IMG/VR virus record: IMGVR_UViG_3300021181_000025
Coordinates: 1 to 38,462 of that record
Strand: one strand, 5' to 3'
DNA length: 38,462 nt
DNA from: a virus
Lineage: Duplodnaviria; Caudoviricetes
Shown: in pieces, positions 996 to 37,723 of the stretch
Layout: each line of letters starts with the position of its first letter
How positions within the stretch are numbered: position 1 is the stretch's first letter
Notes under the pieces: model-generated
Databases searched by the model: none
Told to the model about the DNA's origin: nothing
The model's input: only the letters and a program-made list of their open reading frames with translations
Program-made: the position numbers and the translations under genes

Positions 996-1592
996 TTAAA
1001 TCATCGCTTCCACATTGCCCTGCAACTCTTCAGCTTTCTCAATGATGCCCGTATCGCTCGGGTTTAATGAGTGCATGTCGCGCGTGAATTCCTTGATAGC
1101 CGCAATGAACTTCTTGATGCTCTTGTTGTAGCGGGCTTCTATTTCCTGATCAGGATCAATTTTCTTGCGCTCTTTGATCATAGAGGTTAAATCTTTGTTC
1201 AATTGCGAAGCATCTGTTCCCTTCTTAAATACTTTATCGCGTAGGGTAGAATAATCCTCACGAGTAAGGTTGCGATCAGCGCGGGCGCGGCGGAGCACAT
1301 CCAATGGCTCATAGGAAGGAATGATGGCCACTTCTCGACCTGAACTAAATTCGGCCTTTAAATATTCAGGTTCTTGCTCCTCGACAAAGAAATAGGTCTT
1401 GACCAGCTTCATGCCCAGAGCTTTCTTCATGCCAAGTTCTTTAATGAGATAATCCTCGAATTTCTCATGTCCCCATTGATGATAAAGCTTATCGCGCCAA
1501 ACCGTATATAGGGATTGACCCAAGAATATCCATGAGGTCTTAAAGGTCTTGGCGTTAGCGGTTAATTCATTCCTTAGCGTTTCTGTTTGCAT
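996..1592 (-). CDS. Conserved hypothetical protein, probable host-derived (AKTFKTSWI...WGHEKFEDY...KEL family)
   Basis: 198 aa ORF with SD GAGGAG. Resembles, from memory, a conserved chromosomal hypothetical protein of Omnitrophota/myxobacteria. Confidence 0.75.
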   Translation of the reverse strand: MQTETLRNELTANAKTFKTSWIFLGQSLYTVWRDKLYHQWGHEKFEDYLIKELGMKKALGMKLVKTYFFVEEQEPEYLKAEFSSGREVAIIPSYEPLDVLRRARADRNLTREDYSTLRDKVFKKGTDASQLNKDLTSMIKERKKIDPDQEIEARYNKSIKKFIAAIKEFTRDMHSLNPSDTGIIEKAEELQGNVEAMI

Positions 1593-3840: not shown

Positions 3841-5022
3841 TTAATCTTTGTATGGATCTGTGATGTCTTCCCCCGCCATACAGACAATGACCGGATGGAG
3901 CACCTCAGTGATCTTAATGGATGTGGCGTGTTCGCCCAAGACGTTCTCAATCCTTTTGTAGCATTGAGGTGCCTCATCAACCCCAGCTCCGCGCAAGCAA
4001 ACATGTTTATTGGCAATCCACTTCATCATCTCATCATGCCTTACCAATCCGGGACCGCGCTTCTTATAACCATTCTCATCCTTAATGAATTTTCCTTTGG
4101 CATCATTTCGGGACATCACGCGCCCGGCACCATGAACGGTAGAGTATAGACTATGAATACTATCTGGACTCTCAATGCCTTCTAAAATAACGGATATGTC
4201 ACCCATAGATCCCCCCACAAATCCTTTCTGGCCGGGGAAGGAAGGGGTAGCACCTTTGCGCACCACCCAAAGGTCTTCACCTTGATGTGTTTCTTTCCAA
4301 GCGAAGTTGTGGTGGTTGTGGACACGGGTGCGCGGAGAAGCACCCATGATCTGCATAACCTTGTGGCATACCCATTCACGGCCTGCATAAGCATATTTGC
4401 CTGCCAATTCCATGGCCACCAGATAATCAGCTCCCAAGGCAGAATCAACATCAACCACTAGGGGTTCAACATTAATACCATCTTGGGCACCGCCAGCCCT
4501 GAGGAAGTGGGTCGCAATCTTGTGTCCGAGCCCACGGGACCCAAAGTGCACACCAATCCACACACGCTCAAGGGTATCAATAAAGACATCCACATAATGG
4601 TTCCCAGATCCAACTGTTCCAAGTTGGCTTTCGGCCGCTTTTTTGTCAATAGAATCTGGAAAAACCTTCCAAGCATCGTCCTCAAACAATGGATGATCAA
4701 CGCGCTCATCATTCTTGCGACCAACGCCAAAAGCTATTTGTTTAAATATTTCATCCGCCAACAAAGAGACATTCGGCTTAATGTCTTCCCATACCAAATC
4801 AGTCATAACCGCCATATTGCCACAGGCGATGTCAAAACCCACTCCAGATGGCGATATTTGGTTTTTATAGGCCACAACTCCACCAATAGGAACTCCATAG
4901 CCAAGGTGATGATCAGCCATTAAGGCTGCCTTATAGGCGGTCTTCTTGCATGTTTCAATTTGGGCTAGGGCTCCCTCATCAACCGGATCACCCCAAACCG
5001 GAATTCCATTAATTATACGCAT
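3841..5022 (-). CDS. rtcB: RtcB family RNA 3'-phosphate/5'-OH ligase
   Basis: Motifs DHHLGYGVPIGGV, GVGFDIACG, GSGNHY, HFGSRG, HNHHN, RKGAT, HGAGR, DEAPQCYK all intact; SD AAGGAG. Confidence 0.96.
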   Translation of the reverse strand: MRIINGIPVWGDPVDEGALAQIETCKKTAYKAALMADHHLGYGVPIGGVVAYKNQISPSGVGFDIACGNMAVMTDLVWEDIKPNVSLLADEIFKQIAFGVGRKNDERVDHPLFEDDAWKVFPDSIDKKAAESQLGTVGSGNHYVDVFIDTLERVWIGVHFGSRGLGHKIATHFLRAGGAQDGINVEPLVVDVDSALGADYLVAMELAGKYAYAGREWVCHKVMQIMGASPRTRVHNHHNFAWKETHQGEDLWVVRKGATPSFPGQKGFVGGSMGDISVILEGIESPDSIHSLYSTVHGAGRVMSRNDAKGKFIKDENGYKKRGPGLVRHDEMMKWIANKHVCLRGAGVDEAPQCYKRIENVLGEHATSIKITEVLHPVIVCMAGEDITDPYKD

Positions 5023-13267: not shown

Positions 13268-14173
13268 ATGTCACAAAATTATCAACAATTGAATCAGTTT
13301 GCTCAGCTTCCGATCTTAGGCGATACCGCGACAAAGGTGAATCTGAATACGCTTTCTGTTCAGATCGATCCTAATTCGACAAATACCCTTCTGCCTGGTG
13401 ATGCAGTATATTTGACACAGACCGCTGGGACCACCATTTTGGTGGACAAATGCTCTGCCACTGTGGCTCCGTTCGGTTACATCCTTTATAACCAAAGATT
13501 CAACCAGTTTATCGCTGGTGATGCGGTGGAAATCGGTACCGCTGGCCAGATTATGTTCTTATTGGCAGGTGGCACCATCAGCCGTGGCAACAATGTGGAA
13601 TATGATCCTAGTGCCAGTTTAACCACTGGTCCGCAAGTATTGGCCTCGGGTGGTGTCAATCCCATCTCTGGTTTAGCCTTGGATAATGCGACTGTCGGCA
13701 ATTTATTGCGCGTCCTTGTCTTGGGCGTATCTTACCCTGTGACCGCCACCATTTCAGGTGGATTTATCAACAACACGCCTATTGGTCAATCCACGGCTGC
13801 TGCTGGTTCGTTCACAACCTTGACGGCTTCTACCAGTTTAAGCGTCACGGGTAATGCGACAGCAACGACTGTATATGATGCGATTGTGGCCTTGACACCG
13901 GGTGCCACCGTTTCATTGAACCCGACATTAGCTGGCTTATTTACATTAGCACCTACGGCTTCTTGTACCATTAATGCAGCCAGCGTTCCTTCTAAGCATC
14001 AGAGAATTGTGATTGTCATTACACCGACATCCACAAGTTCTATGGTGATTACCTTCGGTAGCAATTTCGTTAGCCAAGGTACTTTGACCACAACGACCAC
14101 TTCACCGTTCTGCTTAAGCTTTGACGGGAATGGTACGAACTTTATTGAATCGTCACAACGTACAACCGATTAA
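13268..14173 (+). CDS. Head decoration/cement protein with C-terminal fibre-like extension
   Basis: Lies between protease and MCP; beta-rich N-domain then INNTPIGQSTAAAGSFTTL fibre motif. Confidence 0.7.
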   Translation: MSQNYQQLNQFAQLPILGDTATKVNLNTLSVQIDPNSTNTLLPGDAVYLTQTAGTTILVDKCSATVAPFGYILYNQRFNQFIAGDAVEIGTAGQIMFLLAGGTISRGNNVEYDPSASLTTGPQVLASGGVNPISGLALDNATVGNLLRVLVLGVSYPVTATISGGFINNTPIGQSTAAAGSFTTLTASTSLSVTGNATATTVYDAIVALTPGATVSLNPTLAGLFTLAPTASCTINAASVPSKHQRIVIVITPTSTSSMVITFGSNFVSQGTLTTTTTSPFCLSFDGNGTNFIESSQRTTD

Positions 14174-23094: not shown

Positions 23095-24025
23095 ATTTCA
23101 AAGGAATTATGAGCTCGATGTTATTGGAAACGATGGTCAATTACACACGTTTTCTTATCCTTTAACGCTCGAGTTTATGGTCAAGCGCAATGTGTTGGCA
23201 TCAGCCAATACCGGGAATTTCAAGGTTTACAATCTGGGACAAACCACCCGGAATGTAATTTATAAAGATCAGTTTTCACCGAATCTGTCGTTTCGTTCTT
23301 TGACATTAAAAGCTGGATATGGTGCGGGATTGACCACGACGCTGCCTATTATATTCCAAGGCAATGTAATGATGGCGCAATCCTATCGTCTGGAAAAGAG
23401 TGTTAATTTCATCACAGAGATCGATGGATATGACTATGCATGGGTTATGACCAATGCCAAATCCAATAGAAATTATCCAGCGGGCACCGTCACCCAGACA
23501 AAGATCATCAACGATTTAATCGGTGATCTTCAAGTCACGGTACCGACTGATCCGAACAATAAAGGAGCAAATTTAGGCATCGGAGCCGTGAGTCCCCAAT
23601 TTAATGTGACCTACAATCAAAATGTCGCAATCGTAGGGAATACTTGGGATGCGCTGCAAAAGATCACTAATAATCAATGTTATATCGACAACGGGAATGT
23701 CTACTGCCTTTTTGAGAATGATGTGTTTCCCGGTGATCTTACGGTAATAAATTCTTCCACGGGTTTACTCGGAACACCAAGGAAGCAGGATCGGCTGATC
23801 ATAGTGGAAATTCTTTTCGAACCCCGATTGCAGGTAGGACAGCAGGTGCAGATTCAAAGCACCTCTTTGGCTCAATATGCCAATACCAACAACGGCATCT
23901 TCAAGGTGGTTGGCATCGAACACCGTGGCATCATATCTGGGGCGGTGGGTGGAGAATGTAAGACCATAGTAAGTTGTCTTTTACCTTTTGAAAAAATAAA
24001 CACTGTGAATTCGAACGCATCATGA
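23084..24025 (+). CDS. Baseplate hub protein
   Basis: FKVYNL, LKAGY, IFQGNV, INSSTGLLGTP, FEPRLQVG, FKVVGIEHRG. Confidence 0.88.
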   Translation: MLTKFQRNYELDVIGNDGQLHTFSYPLTLEFMVKRNVLASANTGNFKVYNLGQTTRNVIYKDQFSPNLSFRSLTLKAGYGAGLTTTLPIIFQGNVMMAQSYRLEKSVNFITEIDGYDYAWVMTNAKSNRNYPAGTVTQTKIINDLIGDLQVTVPTDPNNKGANLGIGAVSPQFNVTYNQNVAIVGNTWDALQKITNNQCYIDNGNVYCLFENDVFPGDLTVINSSTGLLGTPRKQDRLIIVEILFEPRLQVGQQVQIQSTSLAQYANTNNGIFKVVGIEHRGIISGAVGGECKTIVSCLLPFEKINTVNSNAS

Positions 24026-24972
24026 CAACGCCAGTTCAAGATAGCCAAAATTTTGTCCCGGTCACGCCAGATTTAAATGCGTGGATACGGTTGATGTTCC
24101 AGACCTTCTCAGCGAACTTCAATTGTGTTTCGTTGGCGACGGTGAATAGTTTTAATGCGATTAATCAAACCGTCAATTTGACGATTAATTATATCCGTGT
24201 ATTTAAAAATGCCAATCCTAATCTGCCAGAGGCGGCCGCGGATGGCCAGACTTCTAACGTGTATTTGCCTTACCCGGTCCTGATTCAATGTCCAGTGTTT
24301 ATTTTGCAGGGAGGCGGGTCATATCTAACCTTCCCAATAAAGGCTGGCGATACCGGAGTGGTGTTATTTAATGATAGAGAGATATCGACATGGATGCAGA
24401 CTGGACAAATCACGTATCCTCAAAACCCCAGGACGCATGACTTATCAGATGGCATTTATTTTGGTGGCATCCGTAATATATTGAACGCGATTCAAAATTA
24501 TAATACATCGGTATGCTCTTTGACGGATTCAACTGGAGAAAGATTAGAAATATCTGGTACAGGTAAGGTTTATTTTGGGAGCACCCTTCCTTCTGGATAC
24601 CTGTGGTGTGATGGTACGTCATATAGTACAACTACTTATCCCAATCTTTTTGCAGCTATTGGATATACCTTTGGAGGGAGTGGAGGAAGTTTTAATGTTC
24701 CTAATATGGCTGGACAAGTACCTGTAGGTATTGGGGGAACACTTGGGCTTACACTTGGGCAAGAATTTGGAGAGGTGAACCATACATTAACGATACCAGA
24801 AATGCCATCTCACAATCACGCGTTTGCTACTTTAAGTAATCCTGGGGCATCAAGTGAGGATGTTTTTTTCAGAAATGGCGGAGATGATCAGGTCACGCAA
24901 AACACTGGAGGGGACGAACCCCACAACAACGTTCAGCCCTCTTTGGGTGTCAATTGGATTATAAAAATATGA
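24022..24972 (+). CDS. Baseplate spike (Gp138-like N-domain) fused to tail-collar domain
   Basis: PVFILQGGGSYLTFPIKAGDTG...DREI...RTHDLSDG, then PSGYLWCDG...LFAAIGYTFGG...FNVPN...HTLTIPEMPSHNH...PHNNVQP. Confidence 0.85.
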   Translation: MTTPVQDSQNFVPVTPDLNAWIRLMFQTFSANFNCVSLATVNSFNAINQTVNLTINYIRVFKNANPNLPEAAADGQTSNVYLPYPVLIQCPVFILQGGGSYLTFPIKAGDTGVVLFNDREISTWMQTGQITYPQNPRTHDLSDGIYFGGIRNILNAIQNYNTSVCSLTDSTGERLEISGTGKVYFGSTLPSGYLWCDGTSYSTTTYPNLFAAIGYTFGGSGGSFNVPNMAGQVPVGIGGTLGLTLGQEFGEVNHTLTIPEMPSHNHAFATLSNPGASSEDVFFRNGGDDQVTQNTGGDEPHNNVQPSLGVNWIIKI

Positions 24973-26539: not shown

Positions 26540-27217
26540 ATGGCTGTAGACCCAAACCTCTTAGAATATTACAGTGATCTCCTAATTGTTCAATATCAAG
26601 ATCAGCCGAACATGATCGCCACCGCTCAATTGTTGGTGAACCAGAGTCTTTGTGATGGGCTTCCTCAGGAACTCCAGACCTGCTTTGATTTAAATTCGGC
26701 TGTAGGAGATCAGCTGACTATTATCGGCGAGATCGTCGGGGTGCCTCGTAATATATTCGGGCTTGATCTGCAGAATACATTTTTCAATTACACCGATTAC
26801 GTTGGTGAACCTGCAGCCATCGGGTTTGGTAGCTATACCGAATCTCCATATCCAACATCTTTATTTAGGAGCTATTTTGATTCAGCGACTTATACAATGA
26901 CCGATGCACAGATGCAACAGGTGATTCAGTTAAAAATTCTTTTTAACAATTGTTATTCCAGCACTAAAGATATCGTTGCTGGATTGTGGGAATTGTTTGG
27001 GAATTATGTTTCTTATATTGATAATAAGAACATGACAGTGACGATAAATGTGGTCAATCCTTACCAGACCATTTTTATCATTGCTCAATATTTGAATATC
27101 ATTCCGCGTCCTATGGGGGTTGGATTGACGCTGAATTTGTTCACCGATTTCTTATATGATCAACAGGGGAATATTTTGTACGACCAACAAGGGTATCCTT
27201 TATACTCTCAACAATGA
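26540..27217 (+). CDS. Baseplate wedge protein (DUF2612 family)
   Basis: LLIVQY, FDLNSAVGDQLTIIGEIVGVPR, IPRPMGV; extra LYDQQG x2 tail. Confidence 0.88.
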   Translation: MAVDPNLLEYYSDLLIVQYQDQPNMIATAQLLVNQSLCDGLPQELQTCFDLNSAVGDQLTIIGEIVGVPRNIFGLDLQNTFFNYTDYVGEPAAIGFGSYTESPYPTSLFRSYFDSATYTMTDAQMQQVIQLKILFNNCYSSTKDIVAGLWELFGNYVSYIDNKNMTVTINVVNPYQTIFIIAQYLNIIPRPMGVGLTLNLFTDFLYDQQGNILYDQQGYPLYSQQ

Positions 27218-27227
27218 GGAGATTAAT

Positions 27228-27689
27228 ATGCGTAGAATAGAAGAATGGCTTTCAGTAATCTTGGTCTTGCTAGTGGTTGCGGGCTCTTTGATTTTCCCTA
27301 TTAAATCCAATGCTGGCCAATTAGGCAATTATCCAGCGACGGCGACATTGGCGAGTGCCGATATCGTGCCCGTTATTATTGTTTTAACAAATCAGAATGA
27401 AACTATCAATTGGTATAACTTTAAAGAGTTAATGAGCAAAAATATCAATTGGACAGATATTACCTCTCAGATTCCAAATCAATCAATGAATTGGACGGAT
27501 ATTCAAAGAGTTCAGAAAACAACCTCTGGGGTCAATTGGACTTACCTTGATATTGTCTCAGGAGGTATGAACTGGACGGCAGTTGCAAACAACGCCTCGA
27601 GTGGACAAGTATTCTGTTATAAGAGCACAGGTCAACCGGGAAAATGCAGTGGGACAATCACCAGCGGCATTTGTGGAACATGCAGTTAA
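27228..27689 (+). CDS. Small signal-peptide-bearing fibre-like protein with NWT repeats and Cys-rich C-terminus
   Basis: ATG 27228 with SD GAGGAG; MRRIEEWLSVILVLLVVAGSLIFPIKSNA|G; [IMV]NW x5. Confidence 0.75.
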   Translation: MRRIEEWLSVILVLLVVAGSLIFPIKSNAGQLGNYPATATLASADIVPVIIVLTNQNETINWYNFKELMSKNINWTDITSQIPNQSMNWTDIQRVQKTTSGVNWTYLDIVSGGMNWTAVANNASSGQVFCYKSTGQPGKCSGTITSGICGTCS

Positions 27690-27698
27690 GGAGATATC

Positions 27699-28541
27699 AT
27701 GGCAAAAATTATACGCGCAACTCAAACATTATTCGGTGGAACAGGGGTCACAAGCGATTTTGGAGAATTTGGTTCTCTAGCCGCTGGAACGCCCACAACG
27801 ACTAAAACGCCTTCAGTAATCCAATCTCTGGCTGCATGGGGATTAGGATGGGCTGCTGCCACTATCGGAGTTTTTGTGCCTGCTTATCAGGACATGAACG
27901 CTGTGCATTATTTAGCGTTTTACCAAATCTGCTATCTCCTGCAGATGGGCGTGGCTGAATACGACGCTGGAACAACCTATTACACTAATAGTGTTGCTCA
28001 ATACAATGGTCAATTCTATGTTTCTTTGGTGGATAACAATGCGGGTAATGAACCAGATATTAGTCCTTCTCAATGGCAATCAGGCCTACCTGGCGCTGAA
28101 ATCACTGGTGTCATAAAACAATATGCAGGCGTTACAGCTCCCGCGGGATACCTTTTGTGCAATGGTGCAGCAGTCAACAGGACAACCTATGCGGCTCTTT
28201 TTAGTATTGTTGGAACCCTTTATGGAATTGGTGATGGTTCTACCACGTTTAATATTCCTGACTTAAGAGGGCGAGTTGCCGTTGGTTATCTATCGGGAGA
28301 TTCTTATTTCGGAACTCTTGGCGAGAGTGGTGGTGAGGAGACTCACACTTTAACCACAAATGAAATGCCCTCTCATAGTCACACCGTCATTCGTGATATG
28401 GGAGGAAGTGCAGGGGCTGGTGCGGGACCAGCTTGGACAAATGGATCAACGACAGGGCCATCTACAAATCCCACAGGTGGTGGGGAAGCTCATAATAACT
28501 TGCAGCCATATTTAACCGTTAATCATATCATCAAATATTAA
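27699..28541 (+). CDS. Short tail fibre with tail-collar domain
   Basis: YLLQMGVAEYDAGTTY anchor; APAGYLLCNG...YAALFSIVG...FNIPDLRGR collar; EMPSHSH...AHNNLQPY. Confidence 0.9.
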   Translation: MAKIIRATQTLFGGTGVTSDFGEFGSLAAGTPTTTKTPSVIQSLAAWGLGWAAATIGVFVPAYQDMNAVHYLAFYQICYLLQMGVAEYDAGTTYYTNSVAQYNGQFYVSLVDNNAGNEPDISPSQWQSGLPGAEITGVIKQYAGVTAPAGYLLCNGAAVNRTTYAALFSIVGTLYGIGDGSTTFNIPDLRGRVAVGYLSGDSYFGTLGESGGEETHTLTTNEMPSHSHTVIRDMGGSAGAGAGPAWTNGSTTGPSTNPTGGGEAHNNLQPYLTVNHIIKY

Positions 28542-28550
28542 GGATGCACT

Positions 28551-28922
28551 ATGCCACAGAATCCAGACCCTTCACAAAATATTCCATTATCTATTGTGCA
28601 AGGTGCCACTTTTGTGCAACAATTTACTTGGTTCGGACCAACTGGATTGCCCAATGATTTGACTGACTTTACGGCTGATATGCAATTTCGATCTACCGTA
28701 CAAGACACAGGAACTCCTATTATTGAAGTATCCACTGGCGTTGGTGGAATAGTTCTGGGAGGCATAACGGGGACTATTACTGTTACCATCAGTGCTACTA
28801 TAACAGCTACATTGTCGGATGGAGAGCAATTGGTTTGGAATTTATTTCTAACTTCTCCAGCGGGGGTAGTATATCCTTTTGCGGCTGGTCCATCCACCGT
28901 ATTTGGGAGCACGATTAAATGA
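28551..28922 (+). CDS. Ig-like fibre/baseplate adaptor protein
   Basis: IVQGATF...DLTDFTADMQFRS...GTITVTISA pattern common in tail modules. Confidence 0.7.
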   Translation: MPQNPDPSQNIPLSIVQGATFVQQFTWFGPTGLPNDLTDFTADMQFRSTVQDTGTPIIEVSTGVGGIVLGGITGTITVTISATITATLSDGEQLVWNLFLTSPAGVVYPFAAGPSTVFGSTIK

Positions 28923-29269
28923 GTTGCGAGCCTATACAAATTCTTCAGAATCCCGACAGTATCGAGGTAAAAACTTACCCGACGAATATCCAAATATTAC
29001 AGGGGGTGAATGTGATAAAGGTATGCTCTCAAAATCCTGTTTCTCAATTCCAACCATTCTCTTTTACGGCTACCGTTGATAATCAGACAACTTTTGGGCC
29101 TCTTCCACAACCTCCATTGAATATTATTACTTTGGCCATCACTGGCACATTGCAAGATCCAGCCGGGACTGTCCCAGATTATACATTGGATGACACTGGC
29201 TTAAATATTATATTGAGTCAAGGAATTGCCGCTGGCAATACTGTCTACGGAATCTATCAGGTGGCCTAA
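28919..29269 (+). CDS. Tail-associated hypothetical protein
   Basis: FTATVDNQTTF...GTLQ...DYT motif; overlaps both neighbours. Confidence 0.7.
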   Translation: MSCEPIQILQNPDSIEVKTYPTNIQILQGVNVIKVCSQNPVSQFQPFSFTATVDNQTTFGPLPQPPLNIITLAITGTLQDPAGTVPDYTLDDTGLNIILSQGIAAGNTVYGIYQVA

Positions 29270-32200
29270 TGAGAAAAATACCTTTATATATTTTAATTAT
29301 TTCGACATTGTTCTTTAATGTGTCGATTGTCCATGCCAATACTCAAACGCCTGCCGCTAATATTTCAGTGGGACCTTCTTCTTTTATTAATTGCCTAAAT
29401 AGCTTAGATACCAATGTACAGGTGTCTTTACAGCAGATCGATAATTGCTTTGGAAATGTTCCTTTAAATCTTACCTTTATTGATTCTCTGGTAAAGAGTG
29501 GCAACAATGTCAGTCTAGTCAATGATTCTGTCTCTCCCGGCAACTCTCTGTATTACGGAACAAATGGAAGCGGCACTAAAGGCTTTTATACTATCCCGGT
29601 GTCGGGGATTACAGCTTTGACAGGAGATGTCAGCGCCACTGGTCCCGGAAGCGCGACCGCAACATTAGCAACCGTTAATACCAATGTTGGTTCTTTTGGT
29701 TCATCTACCGCTATTCCAAATTTTACAGTGAATGGTAAAGGCCTTCTGACGGCTGCAGGCAGCAATGCTGTAGTGGCTCCCGCGGGCACCCTGACAGGGA
29801 CTGCGCTGGCCTCTAATGTGGTTTCATCTTCTTTGACCTCCGTAGGCACTATTGGCACAGGTATTTGGCATGGAACGGCCATAGGTTATCAATATGGCGG
29901 ATCAGGACAAATCACCGCTCCAAGCAATGATCTTCTTGTCGGGAATGGTTCAGGATGGACATTGACAACATTGGGAAGCTGTTCCGGTGCGACCAACGCC
30001 TTGACTTATAATATGGGCACAGGTTTATTTGGATGTAATAGCATTGTGGGGGGGGTTTCCTCGGTATCTAATAGCGATAGTTCTTTAAGCATTAGTCCTA
30101 CCACGGGAACTGTCGTTGCGTCTTTAAATACTGGGCATAGTAATACCTGGTCCGCTTCTCAAATATTTAATTCCAATGTTGGTATAAATTCAGCAAATCC
30201 CGGCCAAGCCTTGGATATTCAAGGCACCGTTAGAGCATTAAACTTCTCGGGACCGGGCACAGGATTAACTGGTACCGCATCTAGTCTCACTGCTGGAACA
30301 GTGTCTACGATCAGCGGCCTTGTGGCAGGAGGTACCAACGTCACGATCACAGGGTCCGGAACGTCCGGAAGCCCGTACACAATTAATTCTAGCGGCAGCG
30401 GTGGTGGTTCGAATGGTTGGAGTCAAGCCGGAAATAATGTTTATACCACAAGCAATAGTTATAACGTAGGCATCGGAACTATGACGCCGGGACAAGCTTT
30501 AGATGTCAAAGGTACTGTTAGGGTGAGTGGCAGCGTCAACACACCTGCTTTGAGCAATCTTACTACAAATGGTTTTGTGAAAACTAGCGGCGGCATCGGT
30601 ACTCTTTCTATTGATACCAGTACATATTTAACCACAGCTTCAGCAACTTCGTTGTACGTTCCTTTTATAGGATGCCCTGAGCCAGTTAATTTCAATGCCC
30701 AGACATTGTTTAATATAGGAACTTTGGAAACAGATCTTAGCACATTGGATGACGGAAGCGGTAATGCATCAATTTATAATGAACTAACAGTTAACTCTGC
30801 ACACGGAAACCTTCTTCCTGCTTTTCAAGTTTTAGATAGTTTTGGTAATCAAGCTTTTGTTGTTGACAATCAAGACTTCTATGGATATGGGGATCGTGTT
30901 GCAACTTTCATGAATATTCTTGACGACGGAACTGGTTACATGACCGTTAATAATGGGTTGACGCTTAATAATATTACAGGACCTGCAGGAAGCGACACGT
31001 ATTTTGTTTTGAATATGACTGGCGGAAATGCGGAAGCTTTATTTAATACTGTCTCTGGAGATTCGGCCGAAATCGTGTTTTCTAGAAGTGACGGCCAGAA
31101 TCCTCCTCCTAGCACTGCTCCAAATGCTCTGTGGAGCATGGGGATTAATCCTAATGGATTTGGTGATAATAGATATACATTTTTTGATCAGGTAAGTGGT
31201 CAATCGGTAATTACATTAGATTCTGATACGGGAGATTTTAAAACACTCAATAATACCGTAGACGATGGAACAGGAGCATCTACCTTTAACGGAACATTGA
31301 CGGCAAGCAATATCATTGATAGTGGACTTTCGGCTAGTACAATTGTTTACGCGAACGGGAGTAAGCAATTATCGTCCGCCACTATAGGAAGCGGTTTATC
31401 ATTCACATCGGGAACATTATCAGCGACCGCACTTTCGAGTCCTTGGGGAAATTCTGGATCGAATGTTTACCTGCTAACCTCAACCAATAATGTTGGCATT
31501 GGTTCATCGACGCCCGGAAGTAAATTAGATGTTCAGGGCACTGTGCGCATATTGAATGGCAATGTTGGAATAGGTTCCACTGCCCCTGGACAGGCCCTAG
31601 ACGTACAAGGTACTGTGAGAGTTTTAGGAAGCGGAACTTTATCTGTTGCTGGAACATCAACATTAACTGGAAACGTAGGTATTGGTCAGGCACCCGATGG
31701 CGTTCACACTTTAATTGTGGGGTCTAAGACGGGAGTATCAAGTCCTCAAAATTCAGATGGTCTCTATGTTATTCCCAATGCTGCTAATGTAGAATTGGCC
31801 GTTTCCAACAGCACTGGTCACAATATATTTTCTGCTATTGAATCAGGTGGTGCATATTTCGGTACAGGTTCCAATGATGATCTAATTATTAGGGCAAACA
31901 ATGGTGATGGTTCACGTTTGCAAGCCAGCACAAAGAATTGGACTTTTGGTGGAAGTGGTTCGCCTGGCTCAACAGTCTCATCTGAAGGAAATTTATCTAT
32001 TGGCTCTTCTTATTATACAACTGCAGCTCCTTCCAACGGTGCAATCATCCAAGGTAATGTAGGTATAGGGTCAACGACGCCGGGCCAAGCCCTTGATGTA
32101 CAAGGCACTGTCCGTGATCTAGGAGAAGTTCTTACCAGCAATGTACCATCAACGACGACCAATACCCTTTACAACAACAGCGGAACTCTCTATTTCAATG

Positions 32201-33123
32201 GTTCAGCGGTGGGGGGAAGCAGTGGTTTGTGGACCACAGTAAACACCAACGATGTGTATGAGCAGAATGGATCGACTTATGGAAATGTAGGGATTGGTAC
32301 TAATCTGACAAGCAACGCAGCATTGACGGTAATGAATGGGAATGTCGGAATAGGCACTTGGAAACCCAATGGTGCGTTGATGATTCAATCAGGTAATGTT
32401 GGCATTGATACCTTTACTGCCTCGAATAATCTTACTGTTAACGGAAATATTCAGATGGTCGGATCTCAGCCAAATTTATTAATTCCAGCTGCTGGATTTA
32501 TAGAATTTAATAATAGTAGAACGATACAGATCAATAATGCTTCTTCAGACATATATGCAGGAATATTGTCGGGTCCAACCAGTACGGATGGAGGAGACAA
32601 CTCGTCATTAGGGACAAACACCTTAGCTTCTTTGACATCATCTGGAGCCAACGATGCAGCTATTGGAAACTCTGCTTTGAATGGAGACACTTCTGGAAGT
32701 CAGAATACGGCAGCAGGTACACTCTCTTTGCGCTATCTTACTACTACAAATCTTAACGCTGCTTTAGGTTATAATGCCGGGACTTTCATAACTGGCGGAA
32801 GTACCCACATCACTACTGCCGCAAACTCCGTGTTTGTAGGAGCGTCTACCGAGGCATTAGCCGATGGGGACACTAATGAGACTGTAGTTGGATACAATGC
32901 CATAGGAGCAGGAAGCAATTCGGTTGTATTGGGGAATTCAAGTGTAACAACCACTGAATTACAAGGGAATATAGGTCTTGGAACTTCAGTCCCAACTTCT
33001 AAGATTCAAGTAAAAGGCACTTGTGCTTCAATCGGTCCCGTGGGTGCCTGTTGGACCTCAACAGGACAAATGGGTTATTGTAGTGGGGCAGCGAATGTCT
33101 GTACCACATGTACTGCATGTTAA
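29269..33123 (+). CDS. Large fibre/adhesin-like protein with Sec signal peptide
   Basis: MRKIPLYILIISTLFFNVSIVHA|N; G/S/T/N-rich; NVGIxxxxPG(Q/S)xLD(V/I)xGTVR x5; Cys-rich C-terminus. Confidence 0.85.
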   Translation: MRKIPLYILIISTLFFNVSIVHANTQTPAANISVGPSSFINCLNSLDTNVQVSLQQIDNCFGNVPLNLTFIDSLVKSGNNVSLVNDSVSPGNSLYYGTNGSGTKGFYTIPVSGITALTGDVSATGPGSATATLATVNTNVGSFGSSTAIPNFTVNGKGLLTAAGSNAVVAPAGTLTGTALASNVVSSSLTSVGTIGTGIWHGTAIGYQYGGSGQITAPSNDLLVGNGSGWTLTTLGSCSGATNALTYNMGTGLFGCNSIVGGVSSVSNSDSSLSISPTTGTVVASLNTGHSNTWSASQIFNSNVGINSANPGQALDIQGTVRALNFSGPGTGLTGTASSLTAGTVSTISGLVAGGTNVTITGSGTSGSPYTINSSGSGGGSNGWSQAGNNVYTTSNSYNVGIGTMTPGQALDVKGTVRVSGSVNTPALSNLTTNGFVKTSGGIGTLSIDTSTYLTTASATSLYVPFIGCPEPVNFNAQTLFNIGTLETDLSTLDDGSGNASIYNELTVNSAHGNLLPAFQVLDSFGNQAFVVDNQDFYGYGDRVATFMNILDDGTGYMTVNNGLTLNNITGPAGSDTYFVLNMTGGNAEALFNTVSGDSAEIVFSRSDGQNPPPSTAPNALWSMGINPNGFGDNRYTFFDQVSGQSVITLDSDTGDFKTLNNTVDDGTGASTFNGTLTASNIIDSGLSASTIVYANGSKQLSSATIGSGLSFTSGTLSATALSSPWGNSGSNVYLLTSTNNVGIGSSTPGSKLDVQGTVRILNGNVGIGSTAPGQALDVQGTVRVLGSGTLSVAGTSTLTGNVGIGQAPDGVHTLIVGSKTGVSSPQNSDGLYVIPNAANVELAVSNSTGHNIFSAIESGGAYFGTGSNDDLIIRANNGDGSRLQASTKNWTFGGSGSPGSTVSSEGNLSIGSSYYTTAAPSNGAIIQGNVGIGSTTPGQALDVQGTVRDLGEVLTSNVPSTTTNTLYNNSGTLYFNGSAVGGSSGLWTTVNTNDVYEQNGSTYGNVGIGTNLTSNAALTVMNGNVGIGTWKPNGALMIQSGNVGIDTFTASNNLTVNGNIQMVGSQPNLLIPAAGFIEFNNSRTIQINNASSDIYAGILSGPTSTDGGDNSSLGTNTLASLTSSGANDAAIGNSALNGDTSGSQNTAAGTLSLRYLTTTNLNAALGYNAGTFITGGSTHITTAANSVFVGASTEALADGDTNETVVGYNAIGAGSNSVVLGNSSVTTTELQGNIGLGTSVPTSKIQVKGTCASIGPVGACWTSTGQMGYCSGAANVCTTCTAC

Positions 33124-33136
33124 AAAAGGAGAAGTT

Positions 33137-33472
33137 ATGAATAGAGCATTAATTCTTATTCTCGGATTAATTGGAGTTCTTTTATTAAGTAATGTTATTA
33201 AATCATGGGCACAGATTCCAACGAGCTATATATCTTCGGATTGCTCAACGGCCTATGTCAACTCTATCAACCCGAGTACAAATCAGGTAGACACCAGCAC
33301 TTACTCTAGTGCGCAGATCAATGCAGCGATTGCGATGGCCCAAACAGCCGAGAATAAACTACGTCAGCAAATCGCTCAAGACGACGTAACCATTGATCTA
33401 TATTTGCCTTTGCAATATGGCATTGCTGAATGTCTTGCCAATCAACAATCTAACCAGGCTAACGCCTCCTAA
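33137..33472 (+). CDS. Exported coiled-coil protein, candidate fibre chaperone
   Basis: ATG 33137 with SD AAGGAG; MNRALILILGLIGVLLLSNVIKSWA|Q; heptads INAAIAMAQTAENKLRQQI. Confidence 0.7.
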   Translation: MNRALILILGLIGVLLLSNVIKSWAQIPTSYISSDCSTAYVNSINPSTNQVDTSTYSSAQINAAIAMAQTAENKLRQQIAQDDVTIDLYLPLQYGIAECLANQQSNQANAS

Positions 33473-33850: not shown

Positions 33851-34549
33851 ATGAATATCCAATCGTGGTTAGCATGGGCAGCGCAGCATAAGGGGTTAAT
33901 TGTTATTCATTTAATAGCTTTTGATCATATCATTTCTCAAGGATTTCAGGCAATCGGATGGACCAAGTGGGTGTCGGTATTAGAAACCATCGCCACGTTT
34001 TTAGGTGCCGTCATCACTGCGACAAAGCAAGTAATTGCCGCGAATAAAAAAACGGCAGCCATTATCATTGTCGGCGGTTTATTGATGCCATGGGTTATAG
34101 CACCGAGTGCTCACGCTGATATTTTCCAGCCAATTCCACATAGAGCCGAGACCAAACAATTCTTGGCAGATGTCAATGGGCTATCAACAAATGCTGATAC
34201 ATTATTGACCGATGCGGCCGCCATTATTAATTATTTAGGTGTACGCGAGGGATATGCTTACCAATTCAATCAACACAAGTGGGTGACAACCACCGGAGCA
34301 ACAATTGTCAGCTATACCCCTTGGAATGTAGCCTTGGGCGTTACTATGCTTAATACCGACGGGGTTGTCGCTGATATTGATTGGAATATAGGAAATTATC
34401 TGCCTGTTCAAGATGTTCCCATTATGAACTTGACTCAATATCTCTATATCTTTGGTGGTGCGGGTGCACAATTAAAGACTGAAGATGATGGTAGTCAGCC
34501 CATGAAATTCGCTTCTGTGGGAGGTATAGAAGCAAAGTTTTCATTCTAA
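33851..34549 (+). CDS. Holin-like N-terminus plus internal signal peptide plus putative small beta-barrel
   Basis: Hydrophobic helices, KK-TAAIIIVGGLLMPWVIAPSAHA|D, amphipathic strands, terminal GGIEAKFSF. Confidence 0.6.
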   Translation: MNIQSWLAWAAQHKGLIVIHLIAFDHIISQGFQAIGWTKWVSVLETIATFLGAVITATKQVIAANKKTAAIIIVGGLLMPWVIAPSAHADIFQPIPHRAETKQFLADVNGLSTNADTLLTDAAAIINYLGVREGYAYQFNQHKWVTTTGATIVSYTPWNVALGVTMLNTDGVVADIDWNIGNYLPVQDVPIMNLTQYLYIFGGAGAQLKTEDDGSQPMKFASVGGIEAKFSF

Positions 34550-34668: not shown

Positions 34669-35391
34669 ATGCGTAAAATCAAACGTTATGGTTGGAAGCC
34701 CTCATTGCCACACAATGTTAAAAAATATTCTTCCTGCCATGAATTTGTGGCCGAACTTCCAGCTCTTATCGATTTAAGGTCCCATTGCCCGGCAGTATAT
34801 GATCAGGGTGATTTAGGGTCATGCACAGCCAATGGCATTGCAGGTGCTATCCAGTTTGTCCAACCTGACGTAATGCCATCTCGTTTGTTCATTTATTATA
34901 ATGAGCGTGGGATCGAAGGAGATCCTGATCAAGATGGCGGTGCAGAAATTCATGACGGCATCCAAAGTATTTCCAAGCAAGGTGCATGCGCTGAGACCGA
35001 ATGGCCTTATGACATTTCTCAGTTTGCGGTATGCCCTCCTGAGCAATGCTATACCGATGCCCTAAAGGATTTGATCAAAGATTATTCTTCCTTAGACAAC
35101 AACAATGATATCAAGCAGGCTCTTCATGCTGGATATCCGGTTGTCTTTGGTATGACCGTTTATGAATCTTTCGAGTCTCCAGAAGTGGCCAGCACCGGGA
35201 TGGTACCGATGCCTGCCAGCAGTGAAGAGGTCATTGGGGGTCACTGTATGTTAATTGTTGGTTATGATGATGAAAAGCAATGCTTTATTGTCCGCAACAG
35301 CTGGGGGGCATCATGGGGCATATCTGGATATTGCTATATCCCCTATTTGTATATCTCCCAATTCGCATCTGATTTCTGGACGATCTCTTAA
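34669..35391 (+). CDS. Papain-family (C1A, xylellain-like) cysteine peptidase
   Basis: YGWKP, DLR..CP.VYDQGDLGSCTA (Gln, catalytic Cys), SRLFIYYNER, GGHCMLIVGYDD (His), VRNSWG (Asn). Confidence 0.95.
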   Translation: MRKIKRYGWKPSLPHNVKKYSSCHEFVAELPALIDLRSHCPAVYDQGDLGSCTANGIAGAIQFVQPDVMPSRLFIYYNERGIEGDPDQDGGAEIHDGIQSISKQGACAETEWPYDISQFAVCPPEQCYTDALKDLIKDYSSLDNNNDIKQALHAGYPVVFGMTVYESFESPEVASTGMVPMPASSEEVIGGHCMLIVGYDDEKQCFIVRNSWGASWGISGYCYIPYLYISQFASDFWTIS

Positions 35392-35401
35392 GGGGGAATT
35401 T

Positions 35402-36220
35402 ATGAATAGAAAAGGTCAGCAGCTATGGGAAGTGACATTGTTGTTGAGCGTGGTTTTGATTGCCATCGCTTGGTTCATGTCTAACCAAAAGACAACCTCT
35501 AATGACTTTCATTCCGGTTCTTCTCAGGTCACCCATACCGCGGACTCAAAACCATTCATAAGCCTTTTTAATTTCACTTGGTCAAGTTCTGGAGACATCA
35601 AAAATAAGGCCGCCACTGGTCCTGGGGCTTCGATTGTAGCCCCAGCGCCAGCGGAGCAGCCATCTACCCCTCCTCAGCAGCTTAAAATAGATTTTGGCAT
35701 CCCCACAAACCATTTAGGACACCTTTCTCCATGGGAAAGATTTGGCATGGACTTAGTCATTATATTGGTGGTAATGGGCGTTGGTGGCCTTTTAGATGCC
35801 TTGGGAGGAGATCATTGGCTATTCTGCCGAAGAATCATGATGCCTTTTCTTCTTGGGATAGGTATCAGTGCGGTCGTGTTTAGCTTTTATGACGAATGGT
35901 ACAATTGGTTGACTCTAATCCTTATTATGCCCATGTGGGGGACATTAAGTCTTCCATATTCAAATGATGGAAATTTTGGCCGGGCATTATGGATGGTTCT
36001 TAGTGCCGTGACCGGAGGACTTTTTCTAGTGCTCTTATCGTGTTTTTGTCATACCCATCTTTTAGCATGGTGGCTTTATATCGCCTATATAGTCATAGCC
36101 GGTATATTCGGGGGGAAATACAAGAACTGGAAGCAATTTAAAGGTGACTGGATTACAGGAAGCTTTGCGCTGTGCTCATTAATATTGTACGTTTTTTTAA
36201 GTCTGCAACTATCCCTTTAG
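35402..36220 (+). CDS. Polytopic membrane protein with class III (prepilin-like) N-terminus
   Basis: ATG 35402 with SD AAGGGGG; MNRKG|QQLWEVTLLLSVVLIAIAW; Pro-rich linker; about 6 TM helices. Confidence 0.7.
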   Translation: MNRKGQQLWEVTLLLSVVLIAIAWFMSNQKTTSNDFHSGSSQVTHTADSKPFISLFNFTWSSSGDIKNKAATGPGASIVAPAPAEQPSTPPQQLKIDFGIPTNHLGHLSPWERFGMDLVIILVVMGVGGLLDALGGDHWLFCRRIMMPFLLGIGISAVVFSFYDEWYNWLTLILIMPMWGTLSLPYSNDGNFGRALWMVLSAVTGGLFLVLLSCFCHTHLLAWWLYIAYIVIAGIFGGKYKNWKQFKGDWITGSFALCSLILYVFLSLQLSL

Positions 36221-37723
36221 GCCGCGTCTTTTCATATAAACGAATTTTTCTCTTTGGGTCATGCGCTCCTTTTTCTTTTCTATGGGAGCGATGATGCTTA
36301 TCTGCTTCCTTAAGTTGGCGATTTCCGCCATATTGTCATCATATTTATTGATGTAGGTATTCTTCTCTGCTTCCTTTAGGAAGTCCTCTGCATGCTTAGT
36401 ATCTCCCTTTATCAAAGACATGATGGCTCCCCAAATAAGAAGACGGAAATCTTTTGGATCATTGATTAATCCCTCGAATGTCTGGGCTGAGGCCATTTCT
36501 TGCTTCCCTTCGTTCATTAGGTCCTGAATCAAATTGTGTCGGTACCAAGACAGTGCAGGAAAGTGACGGAGGTGGTATTGATAAAATGAAGTAAGGTCTT
36601 TATACATCGGGTACACTTCAGAGAGGCAAATACAATAATAAGCACAAAATGCTATTAATAATGGGACATAGAGAATCCCGGCCATTGATAAAAAATATGA
36701 AAGGAAAAACATCATAAATACATTTGGCATGCTGCAATATCTATCTGATAGAATTTGGGTCACGGGCAAGACGGCTGACCATTGCAGAGTGGCTAAAACA
36801 AAGAATCCAAAAAATCCAATATACCTATGAGGAAGAATAAAAAATATAATCGCACACGCACCCAAAGCTGCTGTGCCTTTAAAGAAATAAGCATCAATTT
36901 TATACGCATCTTCTGTCCCCTCCTTAGTTAATCCCCACTTCAAACGATCAGGATATTGCATCGCACATACTTGAGGGAATATCATCTTCCAAAAAAAGAA
37001 ACCAAAGGTCTTGACGATGACAATAAATCTGGTAGGTTTGAAAGTTTTCAGATCCCCATCTGCCATGACCTCCATGCGCCCACGACATTTTCCTATAATA
37101 TATTGACTCCCGGCCAGCAGGAATATCGGGATCAAAAGAAGGAACCATGGGGATTTATTTAAAAGTAATATTGGTGAGAAAATGGCGGTGACTTGAAGTA
37201 GTCCACTAAAAAGATATAGGGCGGGTGCAATAATTGGCACCAACATCATTGTCAATACCAATATAATATTTATCGCATACCGACGGCCATTGAGCCACAG
37301 GGATGTCTGGTTATTAATTGGATTACAAATATAGAGAACCGCGGCACCAAAAGATATCTTGTCGTGCCCTAGTGCAAAAAACATAAGTATCGCAATGGTT
37401 GAGTTAATGGCTATCTTTACCCAATGTTCTAATTTGACATTTGTACCGAACGTGGTACCGCTATAGAGGTGATCTGAAATAAACTCTTGGAAATTGTTAA
37501 AATTCCTTATCTTGGAAATAGGGAAAAAACCCAACTGGCGCCTCTTCTGGTACCATTGGTAATCATCCATAATGACATCATATGTCGTCGAGTGAAAGTA
37601 TAGAGCAATATTAATGAGGATTAGAATAATCGATGGAATCACTGCTGCCTCCGGGTATGGTGATGTAAAGAAAGATAGAAAACGCAAAAAATAGAATGAA
37701 TACCACACATGCAATGAGGGCAT
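36209..37723 (-). CDS. GT-C fold glycosyltransferase, TMTC-like, with C-terminal TPR-like helices
   Basis: VIMDD first-loop motif, NPINNQTSLWLNGR (cf. HPxxxEAVxWIxGR), SDRYCSMP (cf. AERYLYLP), ~10 TM helices; ATG 37723 in TGATG overlap. Confidence 0.75.
   Translation of the reverse strand: MPSLHVWYSFYFLRFLSFFTSPYPEAAVIPSIILILINIALYFHSTTYDVIMDDYQWYQKRRQLGFFPISKIRNFNNFQEFISDHLYSGTTFGTNVKLEHWVKIAINSTIAILMFFALGHDKISFGAAVLYICNPINNQTSLWLNGRRYAINIILVLTMMLVPIIAPALYLFSGLLQVTAIFSPILLLNKSPWFLLLIPIFLLAGSQYIIGKCRGRMEVMADGDLKTFKPTRFIVIVKTFGFFFWKMIFPQVCAMQYPDRLKWGLTKEGTEDAYKIDAYFFKGTAALGACAIIFFILPHRYIGFFGFFVLATLQWSAVLPVTQILSDRYCSMPNVFMMFFLSYFLSMAGILYVPLLIAFCAYYCICLSEVYPMYKDLTSFYQYHLRHFPALSWYRHNLIQDLMNEGKQEMASAQTFEGLINDPKDFRLLIWGAIMSLIKGDTKHAEDFLKEAEKNTYINKYDDNMAEIANLRKQISIIAPIEKKKERMTQREKFVYMKRRGLKG

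What the first reader, a model, noticed from the sequence alone, without database searches (positions are those of the whole stretch)
27228..33472. Tail-module fibre proteins carry Sec signal peptides: candidate exported, post-lysis fibre assembly system
Seen: three genes inside the baseplate/fibre operon begin with classical signal peptides: 27228 (..KSNA|G), the 1284-aa fibre at 29269 (..IVHA|N) and 33137 (..SWA|Q). They are interleaved with ordinary cytoplasmic tail genes. Known: tailed-phage virions normally assemble in the cytoplasm, so fibres lack signal peptides. Inference: these fibres fold in the periplasm (disulfides, possibly glycans, with an exported coiled-coil chaperone) and join the virion at or after lysis, or they are displayed on the lysogen surface.
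Basis: partly seen in the sequence, partly recalled or inferred. Interest (0 to 1): 0.85.

Follow-up and report, generated by a model that had tools for sequence, protein, structure and literature searches.

The report
Exported phage fibres with docking clips
A contractile-tailed phage, likely of Omnitrophota bacteria, puts export-type leaders on three tail-block proteins, and one of them is predicted to clip onto a short tag on the leaderless baseplate, so these fibres are likely matured outside the cytoplasm and would join the particle only when the cell bursts.

Summary
Confirmed. Three of 33 structural-block genes (27228, 29269, 33137) carry Sec-type leaders (own heuristic). The two closest complete relatives keep a leader on the long fibre with a different sequence. 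None of the three genomes matched a tyrosine integrase or resolvase, which weakens the lysogen-display idea. New here are two candidate hand-over points. (1) The leaderless baseplate wedge ends in a three-unit tag that co-occurs with 27228-type genes in three distantly related phages; a 27228 trimer is predicted to bind it (score 0.83, best control 0.00). (2) Leaderless 28919 folds like the CBA120 TSP4 XD2 docking domain and precedes the exported fibre in 4 of 4 loci seen. The fibre bodies resemble Omnitrophota chromosomal fibre proteins. The phage also encodes a GT-C-fold membrane enzyme. Cultured phage phi18:3 has three leader-bearing proteins annotated structural by MS/MS. Export, cleavage and late attachment remain inferred. 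This scan noted leader-bearing fibres before on other DNA; I found no paper describing the route.

The parts
26540..27217 (+). Baseplate wedge (DUF2612; kin of XM1 gp17 and Pam3 gp23), leaderless
   Evidence: Pfam; PDB profile search; heuristic
27146..27214 (+). C-terminal docking tag of the wedge (D203-Q225), three LY(D/S) units 8 residues apart
   Evidence: Absent in relatives L003/L004, present in L057; tags before leader-bearing anchor genes in L057 and L150; predicted interface
27228..27689 (+). Leader-bearing mini-fibre: leader 27228-27314, N-terminal tag-binding domain, GINW-type repeats, 4-Cys cap
   Evidence: 39 of 49 short homologues have leaders; N57 invariant; hhalign 81% to the anchor of leaderless fibres; complex
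27699..28541 (+). Leaderless collar-domain tail fibre
   Evidence: PHROG/Pfam; PDB 8kec long tail fibre
28551..28922 (+). Leaderless adaptor (phrog_1084; weak match to the 'L-shaped tail fiber assembly' family)
   Evidence: conserved in L003/L004
28919..29269 (+). Leaderless stand-alone XD2-like domain, likely the docking hub for the long fibre
   Evidence: Model; top structural hit TSP4 187-250, Z 9.0, rmsd 1.5, 64 aligned; same domain ends the anchored fibre of podophage G009
29269..33123 (+). Leader-bearing long fibre: leader 29269-29337, TNVQ N-terminal domain with a Cys pair, mobile shaft module 29608-29883, 11 NVGIG-type repeats, 6-Cys tip
33137..33472 (+). Small leader-bearing protein (leader 33137-33211), 2 Cys; likely a partner or chaperone of the fibre tip
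   Evidence: Weak likeness (E 0.006, pairwise) to a 95-aa leader-bearing gene of G013, whose fibre has a near-identical Cys tip; no such gene after the L003 fibre
36209..37642 (-). GT-C-fold (TMTC/PMT-like) membrane protein with TPR tail; candidate periplasmic glycosyltransferase, link to the fibres unproven
   Evidence: Atlas; D26 invariant and D27 nearly so; model pLDDT 95; top 7 structural hits all GT-C, Z 13.9-15.1

Best explanation
Three tail-block proteins carry export-type leaders and are likely secreted through Sec, where they would fold and form disulfides in the periplasm; they would then clip onto cytoplasm-built particles at or after lysis through predicted docking sites on leaderless tail parts. 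Dock 1: the wedge's three-unit tag is predicted to bind the freed N-terminal tip of a 27228 trimer, one unit per subunit. Dock 2 (inferred from fold and gene order only): the XD2-like 28919 hub receives the TNVQ N-terminus of the long fibre. The fibre bodies were likely recruited from exported fibre proteins of the host lineage, which would explain why they keep the export route. 33137 likely assists the tip. The GT-C enzyme may glycosylate these parts. Shown: sequences, conservation, co-occurrence. Predicted: folds and the complex. Inferred: export, cleavage, timing.
For: Leaders are kept while their sequence diverges in L003/L004. Among fibre homologues, 4 or more Cys occur in 18 of 23 leader-bearing against 19 of 96 leaderless proteins, and in 12 of 18 against 6 of 45 in viral loci. 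A tag precedes a leader-bearing anchor gene in the window, L057 and L150; both tag and gene are absent in L003/L004; a tag also precedes a leaderless anchor fibre in L045. Complex score 0.83, best of 3 controls 0.00; the mark was reached by 116 of 157 solved and 2 of 215 mismatched pairs; runs agree in at least 97% of contacts; partner pLDDT at least 74. Neither partner has a solved relative by sequence. 28919 resembles TSP4 XD2. Related podophages put a leader directly before a tail-fibre anchor that in G011 is 42% identical to the epsilon15 tailspike N-terminus. No integrase matched in 3 of 3 genomes. 3 of 12 MS/MS-annotated structural proteins of phi18:3 have leaders.
Against: There are no virions, proteomics or SignalP run for this phage; the leader test is home-made. 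The complex job is unlike the tool's calibration (trimer plus peptide, own alignments). A direct HMM of the anchor missed 27228; only profile-profile comparison linked them. The XD fold also occurs in neck and adaptor proteins, so it is not specific. Fibre repeats are shared with host chromosomal proteins in non-phage context. One tag lies on a small leader-bearing gene not followed by an anchor gene (G013). The phi18:3 evidence is a GenBank note; the paper was not available. Homologue counts are not independent of kinship.
Confidence: 0.68

Rival explanations
1. The exported proteins act on or from the infected cell, as surface adhesins, receptor blockers or free decoys released at lysis, and are not virion parts.
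For: NVGIG repeats occur in 13 of 201 and GINW repeats in 48 of 201 genomes of the host phylum, with an array beside hisS/aspS-like housekeeping genes in G201. Bdellovibrio MAT fibres are leader-bearing surface adhesins (PMC10769870, passages). The phage already has a leaderless fibre (27699).
Against: No integrase matched. The genes sit in the fibre slot of the late operon. The fibre's mature N-terminus matched 0 of 201 host-phylum genomes. The tag on the wedge appears and disappears with 27228 and is predicted to bind it. Relatives put leaders on tail-fibre anchor domains.
Confidence: 0.17
2. The leaders stay uncleaved as membrane anchors for a time and particles pick the fibres up at the membrane, for example through lysis lesions, before the cell bursts.
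For: 27228 has a long hydrophobic stretch. The CHAP lysin also has a leader-like N-terminus (read by eye), so envelope events may be staged.
Against: Small-residue cleavage motifs are conserved across the family. The predicted docking face is the first mature residues, G30-G33, which would face the periplasm and be crowded by an uncleaved leader (inference).
Confidence: 0.09
3. The leaders are vestiges or mis-called starts, and the working proteins are made in the cytoplasm.
For: Most homologues of the shaft module are leaderless (45 of 63).
Against: Good RBS or translational coupling at the called starts. No RBS-backed in-frame start is seen near the cut sites (read by eye). Leaders are conserved in function in relatives and track cysteine content.
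Confidence: 0.06

Closest known systems
Branched receptor-binding complexes on gp10-like XD hubs (CBA120 TSP4; T4 gp10; G7C gp66), PMC8825819 (abstract and passages read)
   Same: 28919 is predicted to have the XD2 fold; a second trimer would dock on a hub rather than on the baseplate.
   Different: Here the hub is a stand-alone gene and the docked fibre carries a Sec-type leader; no leader is mentioned for the CBA120 partners in the passages read, and I recall them as cytoplasmic.
Bdellovibrio bacteriovorus MAT fibres, PMC10769870 (passages read)
   Same: Leader-bearing, mosaic, phage-fibre-like proteins; the capping-loop motif resembles the NVGIG...P...L repeats (one residue longer here than as printed).
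   Different: MATs are chromosomal and displayed on the predator surface, with a shared ~130-aa N-terminal domain. These genes lie in a phage tail operon, begin with docking-type domains not found in the host-phylum genomes searched, and have no S74 match.
Cellulophaga phage phi18:3 gp085-gp087 (GenBank KC821620)
   Same: Leader-bearing proteins annotated 'structural protein' from MS/MS; 9 other such proteins in the stretch viewed are leaderless.
   Different: Different host phylum and few cysteines; no docking tag examined; I found no paper discussing the leaders.
PB1/E217-like and Pam3-like myovirus baseplates, PMC10329688 (passages read)
   Same: Same tail gene order; in E217 the wedge (gp45) is where the fibre encoded next to it attaches.
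   Different: Here an extra C-terminal tag on the wedge and an inserted leader-bearing gene add a second attachment.
GT-C protein glycosyltransferases (Pmt, PglB/STT3, TMTC-like)
   Same: 36209-37642 has the fold, a conserved first-loop Asp-Asp and a TPR tail.
   Different: A phage-specific family, distant from host-phylum copies; donor and acceptor unknown.

Membership tests
Sec/SPase I substrates | Basic n-region, hydrophobic h-region, small residues at -3/-1 | tested here: met
   Own heuristic and direct reading; family-wide; SignalP not available
Sec/SPase I substrates | Export and cleavage in vivo | not testable with these tools
   Needs reporter fusions or proteomics
Tailed-phage fibres/RBPs | Encoded in the tail module after the baseplate genes | tested here: met
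Tailed-phage fibres/RBPs | N-terminal domain that binds a tail component | tested here: inconclusive
   Predicted for 27228 (0.83, best control 0.00); for 29269 only gene order and hub fold
Tailed-phage fibres/RBPs | Present in purified virions | not testable with these tools
   Uncultured; indirect precedent in phi18:3 annotation
Bdellovibrio MAT family | Conserved ~130-aa beta-rich domain right after the leader | not tested
   No MAT sequence compared; 29269 starts with a TNVQ domain
Bdellovibrio MAT family | Chromosomal gene of a bacterium | tested here: not met
   Genes lie in a complete phage genome with terminal repeats
Bdellovibrio MAT family (S74 subgroup) | C-terminal S74 chaperone | tested here: not met
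   No Pfam match for 29269 at E up to 1; it ends in a 6-Cys tip
XD-hub branched RBP systems | gp10-like XD domain on an anchored partner | tested here: inconclusive
   Top hit TSP4 XD2, Z 9.0, but neck and adaptor proteins score 8.1-8.7
Lysogenic-conversion morons | Temperate phage with an integrase | tested here: not met
   PF00589 0 of 3, PF00239 0 of 3 genomes; plasmid-type or transposase-based lysogeny not searched by family
GT-C glycosyltransferases (36209-37642) | GT-C membrane fold with acidic motif in the first external loop | tested here: met
GT-C glycosyltransferases (36209-37642) | Sugar transfer to the fibres | not testable with these tools
   Needs glycoproteomics

The most novel reading that the evidence does not exclude
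Many tailed phages run a two-compartment assembly line: host-recognition fibres recruited from host adhesins are exported, disulfide-bonded and glycosylated by the phage's own GT-C enzyme, then snap onto finished particles at lysis through a portable three-unit peptide tag and an XD hub, so fibres could even be exchanged between particles outside the cell.
Probability: 0.35. Interest if true: 0.93.

Novelty: categorically new. Interest (0 to 1): 0.8.

Why it matters
Tailed-phage particles are held to be built wholly in the cytoplasm. A route in which receptor-binding parts mature in the periplasm and attach at lysis would let phages use disulfide-locked, possibly glycosylated host adhesins as fibres. 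It would also change how leader-bearing 'hypothetical' phage genes are annotated. This window names a concrete 23-residue tag and its 125-aa partner, so the idea can be tested with two small recombinant proteins, and phi18:3 offers a cultured system.

Tried and rejected
N-glycosylation: sequons in the fibre are 30 against 32 expected; the 7 in 27228 (2.7 expected) come from NW repeats whose next residue varies in homologues; rejected. A direct HMM of the anchor missed 27228. The idea that the cassette split a podophage nozzle gene in L150 got no support. GT-C as a required part of the route: 0 of 50 other fibre-module phage records carry this family, including leader-bearing ones, and 2 of 10 other GT-C phage records show no leader-bearing fibres in the regions read; rejected as required. 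Foldseek gave no GT-C hit under E 0.001; the wider aligner did. No cultured phage matched the first 577 aa of the fibre. Viral scans for the 27228 family and 33137 returned only this phage or nothing. Atlas hits for 27228 were under 0.9, leads only. Promoter and terminator scans were at or below chance. Three host MAGs had no match to a fibre repeat region. Literature searches for the route listed nothing relevant; subscription journals are not covered.

Full report
Setting. The window is most of a contractile-tailed phage: terminases, portal, capsid, sheath, hub, wedges and fibres were identified by PHROG and Pfam. A complete copy exists (G001, 47,999 bp, terminal repeats), identical over the finding (0 of 6,245 bases differ). 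The missing 9.5 kb holds RecT, nucleases and a CHAP lysin. No tyrosine integrase or resolvase matched G001 or its two complete relatives (0 of 3 each; controls rang in 14 and 12 of 14 genomes). An HTH regulator is present, and other forms of lysogeny were not searched. The host is likely Omnitrophota: gene 996-1592 matched 3 genome contigs, all Omnitrophota MAGs, at 37-42% identity.

Observation. The three leaders are real. My heuristic (charge, hydrophobic window, -3/-1 rule; not SignalP) flagged 5 of 48 window genes, and only these three among the 33 genes from terminase to 33137. In relatives L003 and L004 the long fibre has a different leader followed by a similar mature start with a conserved cysteine pair. 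Of 119 fibre homologues, 23 were leader-positive after I moved two evident false calls (P0009, P0047) to the negative set; 18 of 23 had four or more cysteines against 19 of 96. Of 80 viral loci with the shaft module, 6 were open at the 5' end and 11 were duplicates; of the 63 left, 18 had leaders, with four or more cysteines in 12 of 18 against 6 of 45. These counts are not corrected for kinship. Of 49 short homologues of 27228, 39 were leader-positive; the rest are mostly fragments or repeat-only matches.

Dock 1. The wedge gene (DUF2612; kin of XM1 gp17 and Pam3 gp23) ends in a 23-residue extension with three LY(D/S) units. L003 and L004 lack both this extension and the 27228 gene. A distant myovirus (L057) has the extension on the same wedge, followed by a leader-bearing fibre. 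A locus with an apparently different tail block (L150) has the tag on a 96-aa leaderless gene directly before a 27228 homologue. L045 has a tag variant before a leaderless fibre with the same kind of N-terminus. A pattern scan of all loci then held gave 8 rows: 4 were tags close to a stop in plausible genes, 3 of them before leader-bearing anchor genes; the fourth (G013) is on a small leader-bearing gene without an anchor gene after it. The 27228-family N-terminus aligns with the anchor of those fibres by hhalign (probability 81%, E 1e-5; best of 30 column-shuffled controls 5.6%), though a direct HMM missed it. A trimer of mature 27228 with the wedge tail scored 0.83 in the complex predictor, best of 3 controls 0.00. 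The mark was reached by 116 of 157 solved and 2 of 215 mismatched pairs; the runs agree in at least 97% of contacts; partner pLDDT is at least 74; the job differs from the calibration. Each tag unit touches one subunit, through G30-G33, Y35, I50 and N55-N57; Y35 and N57 are invariant in the family. Neither partner has a solved relative by sequence. Because the face is made of the first mature residues, I infer that leader cleavage frees it. In E217 the wedge is where fibres attach (PMC10329688, passages).

Dock 2. Leaderless 28919 is conserved directly upstream of the long fibre in the window, L003 and L004. The same domain ends the leaderless, tail-anchored fibre of podophage G009, which is followed by a leader-bearing fibre with the same TNVQ start (4 of 4 loci seen). 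The TNVQ profile was seeded with leader-bearing proteins, so only G009 is an independent hit. The 28919 model (mean pLDDT 74, domain above 80) best matches TSP4 residues 187-250 (Z 9.0, rmsd 1.5, 64 aligned), which is the XD2 module thought to receive other trimers (PMC8825819, abstract and passages). Neck and adaptor proteins score almost as high, so this is suggestive only. An earlier scan note had named XD hubs before my fold search returned the hit.

Support from other phages. In podophages G011 and G013 a leader stands directly before a tail-fibre anchor domain (PHROG 1640/13893 matched from near the profile start); G011's is 42% identical to the epsilon15 tailspike N-terminus. G007 and G009 have the same anchor without a leader. 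Following a lead from earlier notes, I checked phi18:3: of 12 genes annotated structural from MS/MS in record positions 20,000-71,443, three (gp085-087) have leaders and nine do not. I saw only the GenBank notes, not the paper.

Origin. A repeat region of the fibre matched 13 of 201 genomes of the host phylum, including an array of giant genes beside housekeeping genes in G201 (neighbours named by eye). GINW repeats matched 48 of 201; all but one of the 150 listed matches begin after most of the anchor part. The fibre's mature N-terminus matched 0 of 201. So the bodies look host-like and the docking ends look phage-specific. The repeats resemble the capping motif of Bdellovibrio MAT adhesins (PMC10769870, passages). 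This fits recruitment of exported host fibres, and it also keeps the surface-adhesin rival alive.

33137 and the GT-C gene. 33137 has no close relative. It is weakly like a 95-aa leader-bearing gene of G013, whose fibre ends in a near-identical cysteine tip; L003, with another tip, lacks such a gene. A tip partner or chaperone is plausible and untested. 36209-37642 folds as GT-C plus TPR: the top 7 structural hits are Pmt4, PglB, Pmt2, STT3, ALG12, AglB and ArnT (Z 13.9-15.1), and the atlas points to TMTC/PMT_2. It occurs in 19 viral loci. Of 10 other records read, 7 show leader-bearing fibre genes, 2 show none and 1 is cut short; two pairs among them are close kin. It was absent from 50 of 50 other fibre-module records, so it is optional. 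N-sequons are not enriched in the fibre.

Novelty. Four searches for the route returned no paper describing exported tailed-phage fibres; I saw listings only, and subscription journals are outside the library. A 2026 paper says no Omnitrophota phage associations had been reported (PMC13452462, passage). The scan noted leader-bearing fibre genes in many other genomes; those notes are unchecked and add no weight. What this window adds is a defined tag-trimer clip with predicted support, a stand-alone XD-like hub and a phage GT-C enzyme. Confidence in export with late attachment is 0.68; interest 0.8.

Noticed in passing
window 36209-37642 (-): Phage-specific GT-C/TPR family found in myo- and podo-type phages; in G008 and G014 it sits next to sugar-transferase-like genes, so it may modify host surfaces instead.
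   Followed up: partly
L006:2475-2951 (G001): CHAP-domain lysin that appears to have its own leader and lies in the early region, far from the tail block; a homologue in G003 is leader-positive.
   Followed up: partly
window 3841-5022 (-): RtcB RNA ligase, a possible counter to RNA-cleaving defences.
   Followed up: no
window 996-1592 (-): Phage copy of an Omnitrophota chromosomal protein of unknown function.
   Followed up: partly
window 34669-35391, 33851-34549, 35402-36220: Papain-family peptidase and two membrane or leader-bearing genes of unknown family in the lysis region; 33851 has a homologue in G003.
   Followed up: no
window 24022-24972: Baseplate spike protein fused to a collar-type domain.
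   Followed up: no
window 13268-14173: Unannotated gene before the capsid gene, conserved in G002 and G003, with a fibre-like C-terminal part; possible head decoration.
   Followed up: partly
L151:1-9027: Open frame of over 3,000 codons made almost wholly of 11-residue GINW repeats; similar giant repeat proteins in 48 of 201 genomes of the host phylum.
   Followed up: partly
G201:C2 about 144,500-186,000: Chromosomal array of giant NVGIG-repeat genes interleaved with small leader-bearing lectin-like genes.
   Followed up: partly
L122:5188-5382 (G013): A small leader-bearing gene that itself ends in the three-unit tag; possible exported adaptor.
   Followed up: no
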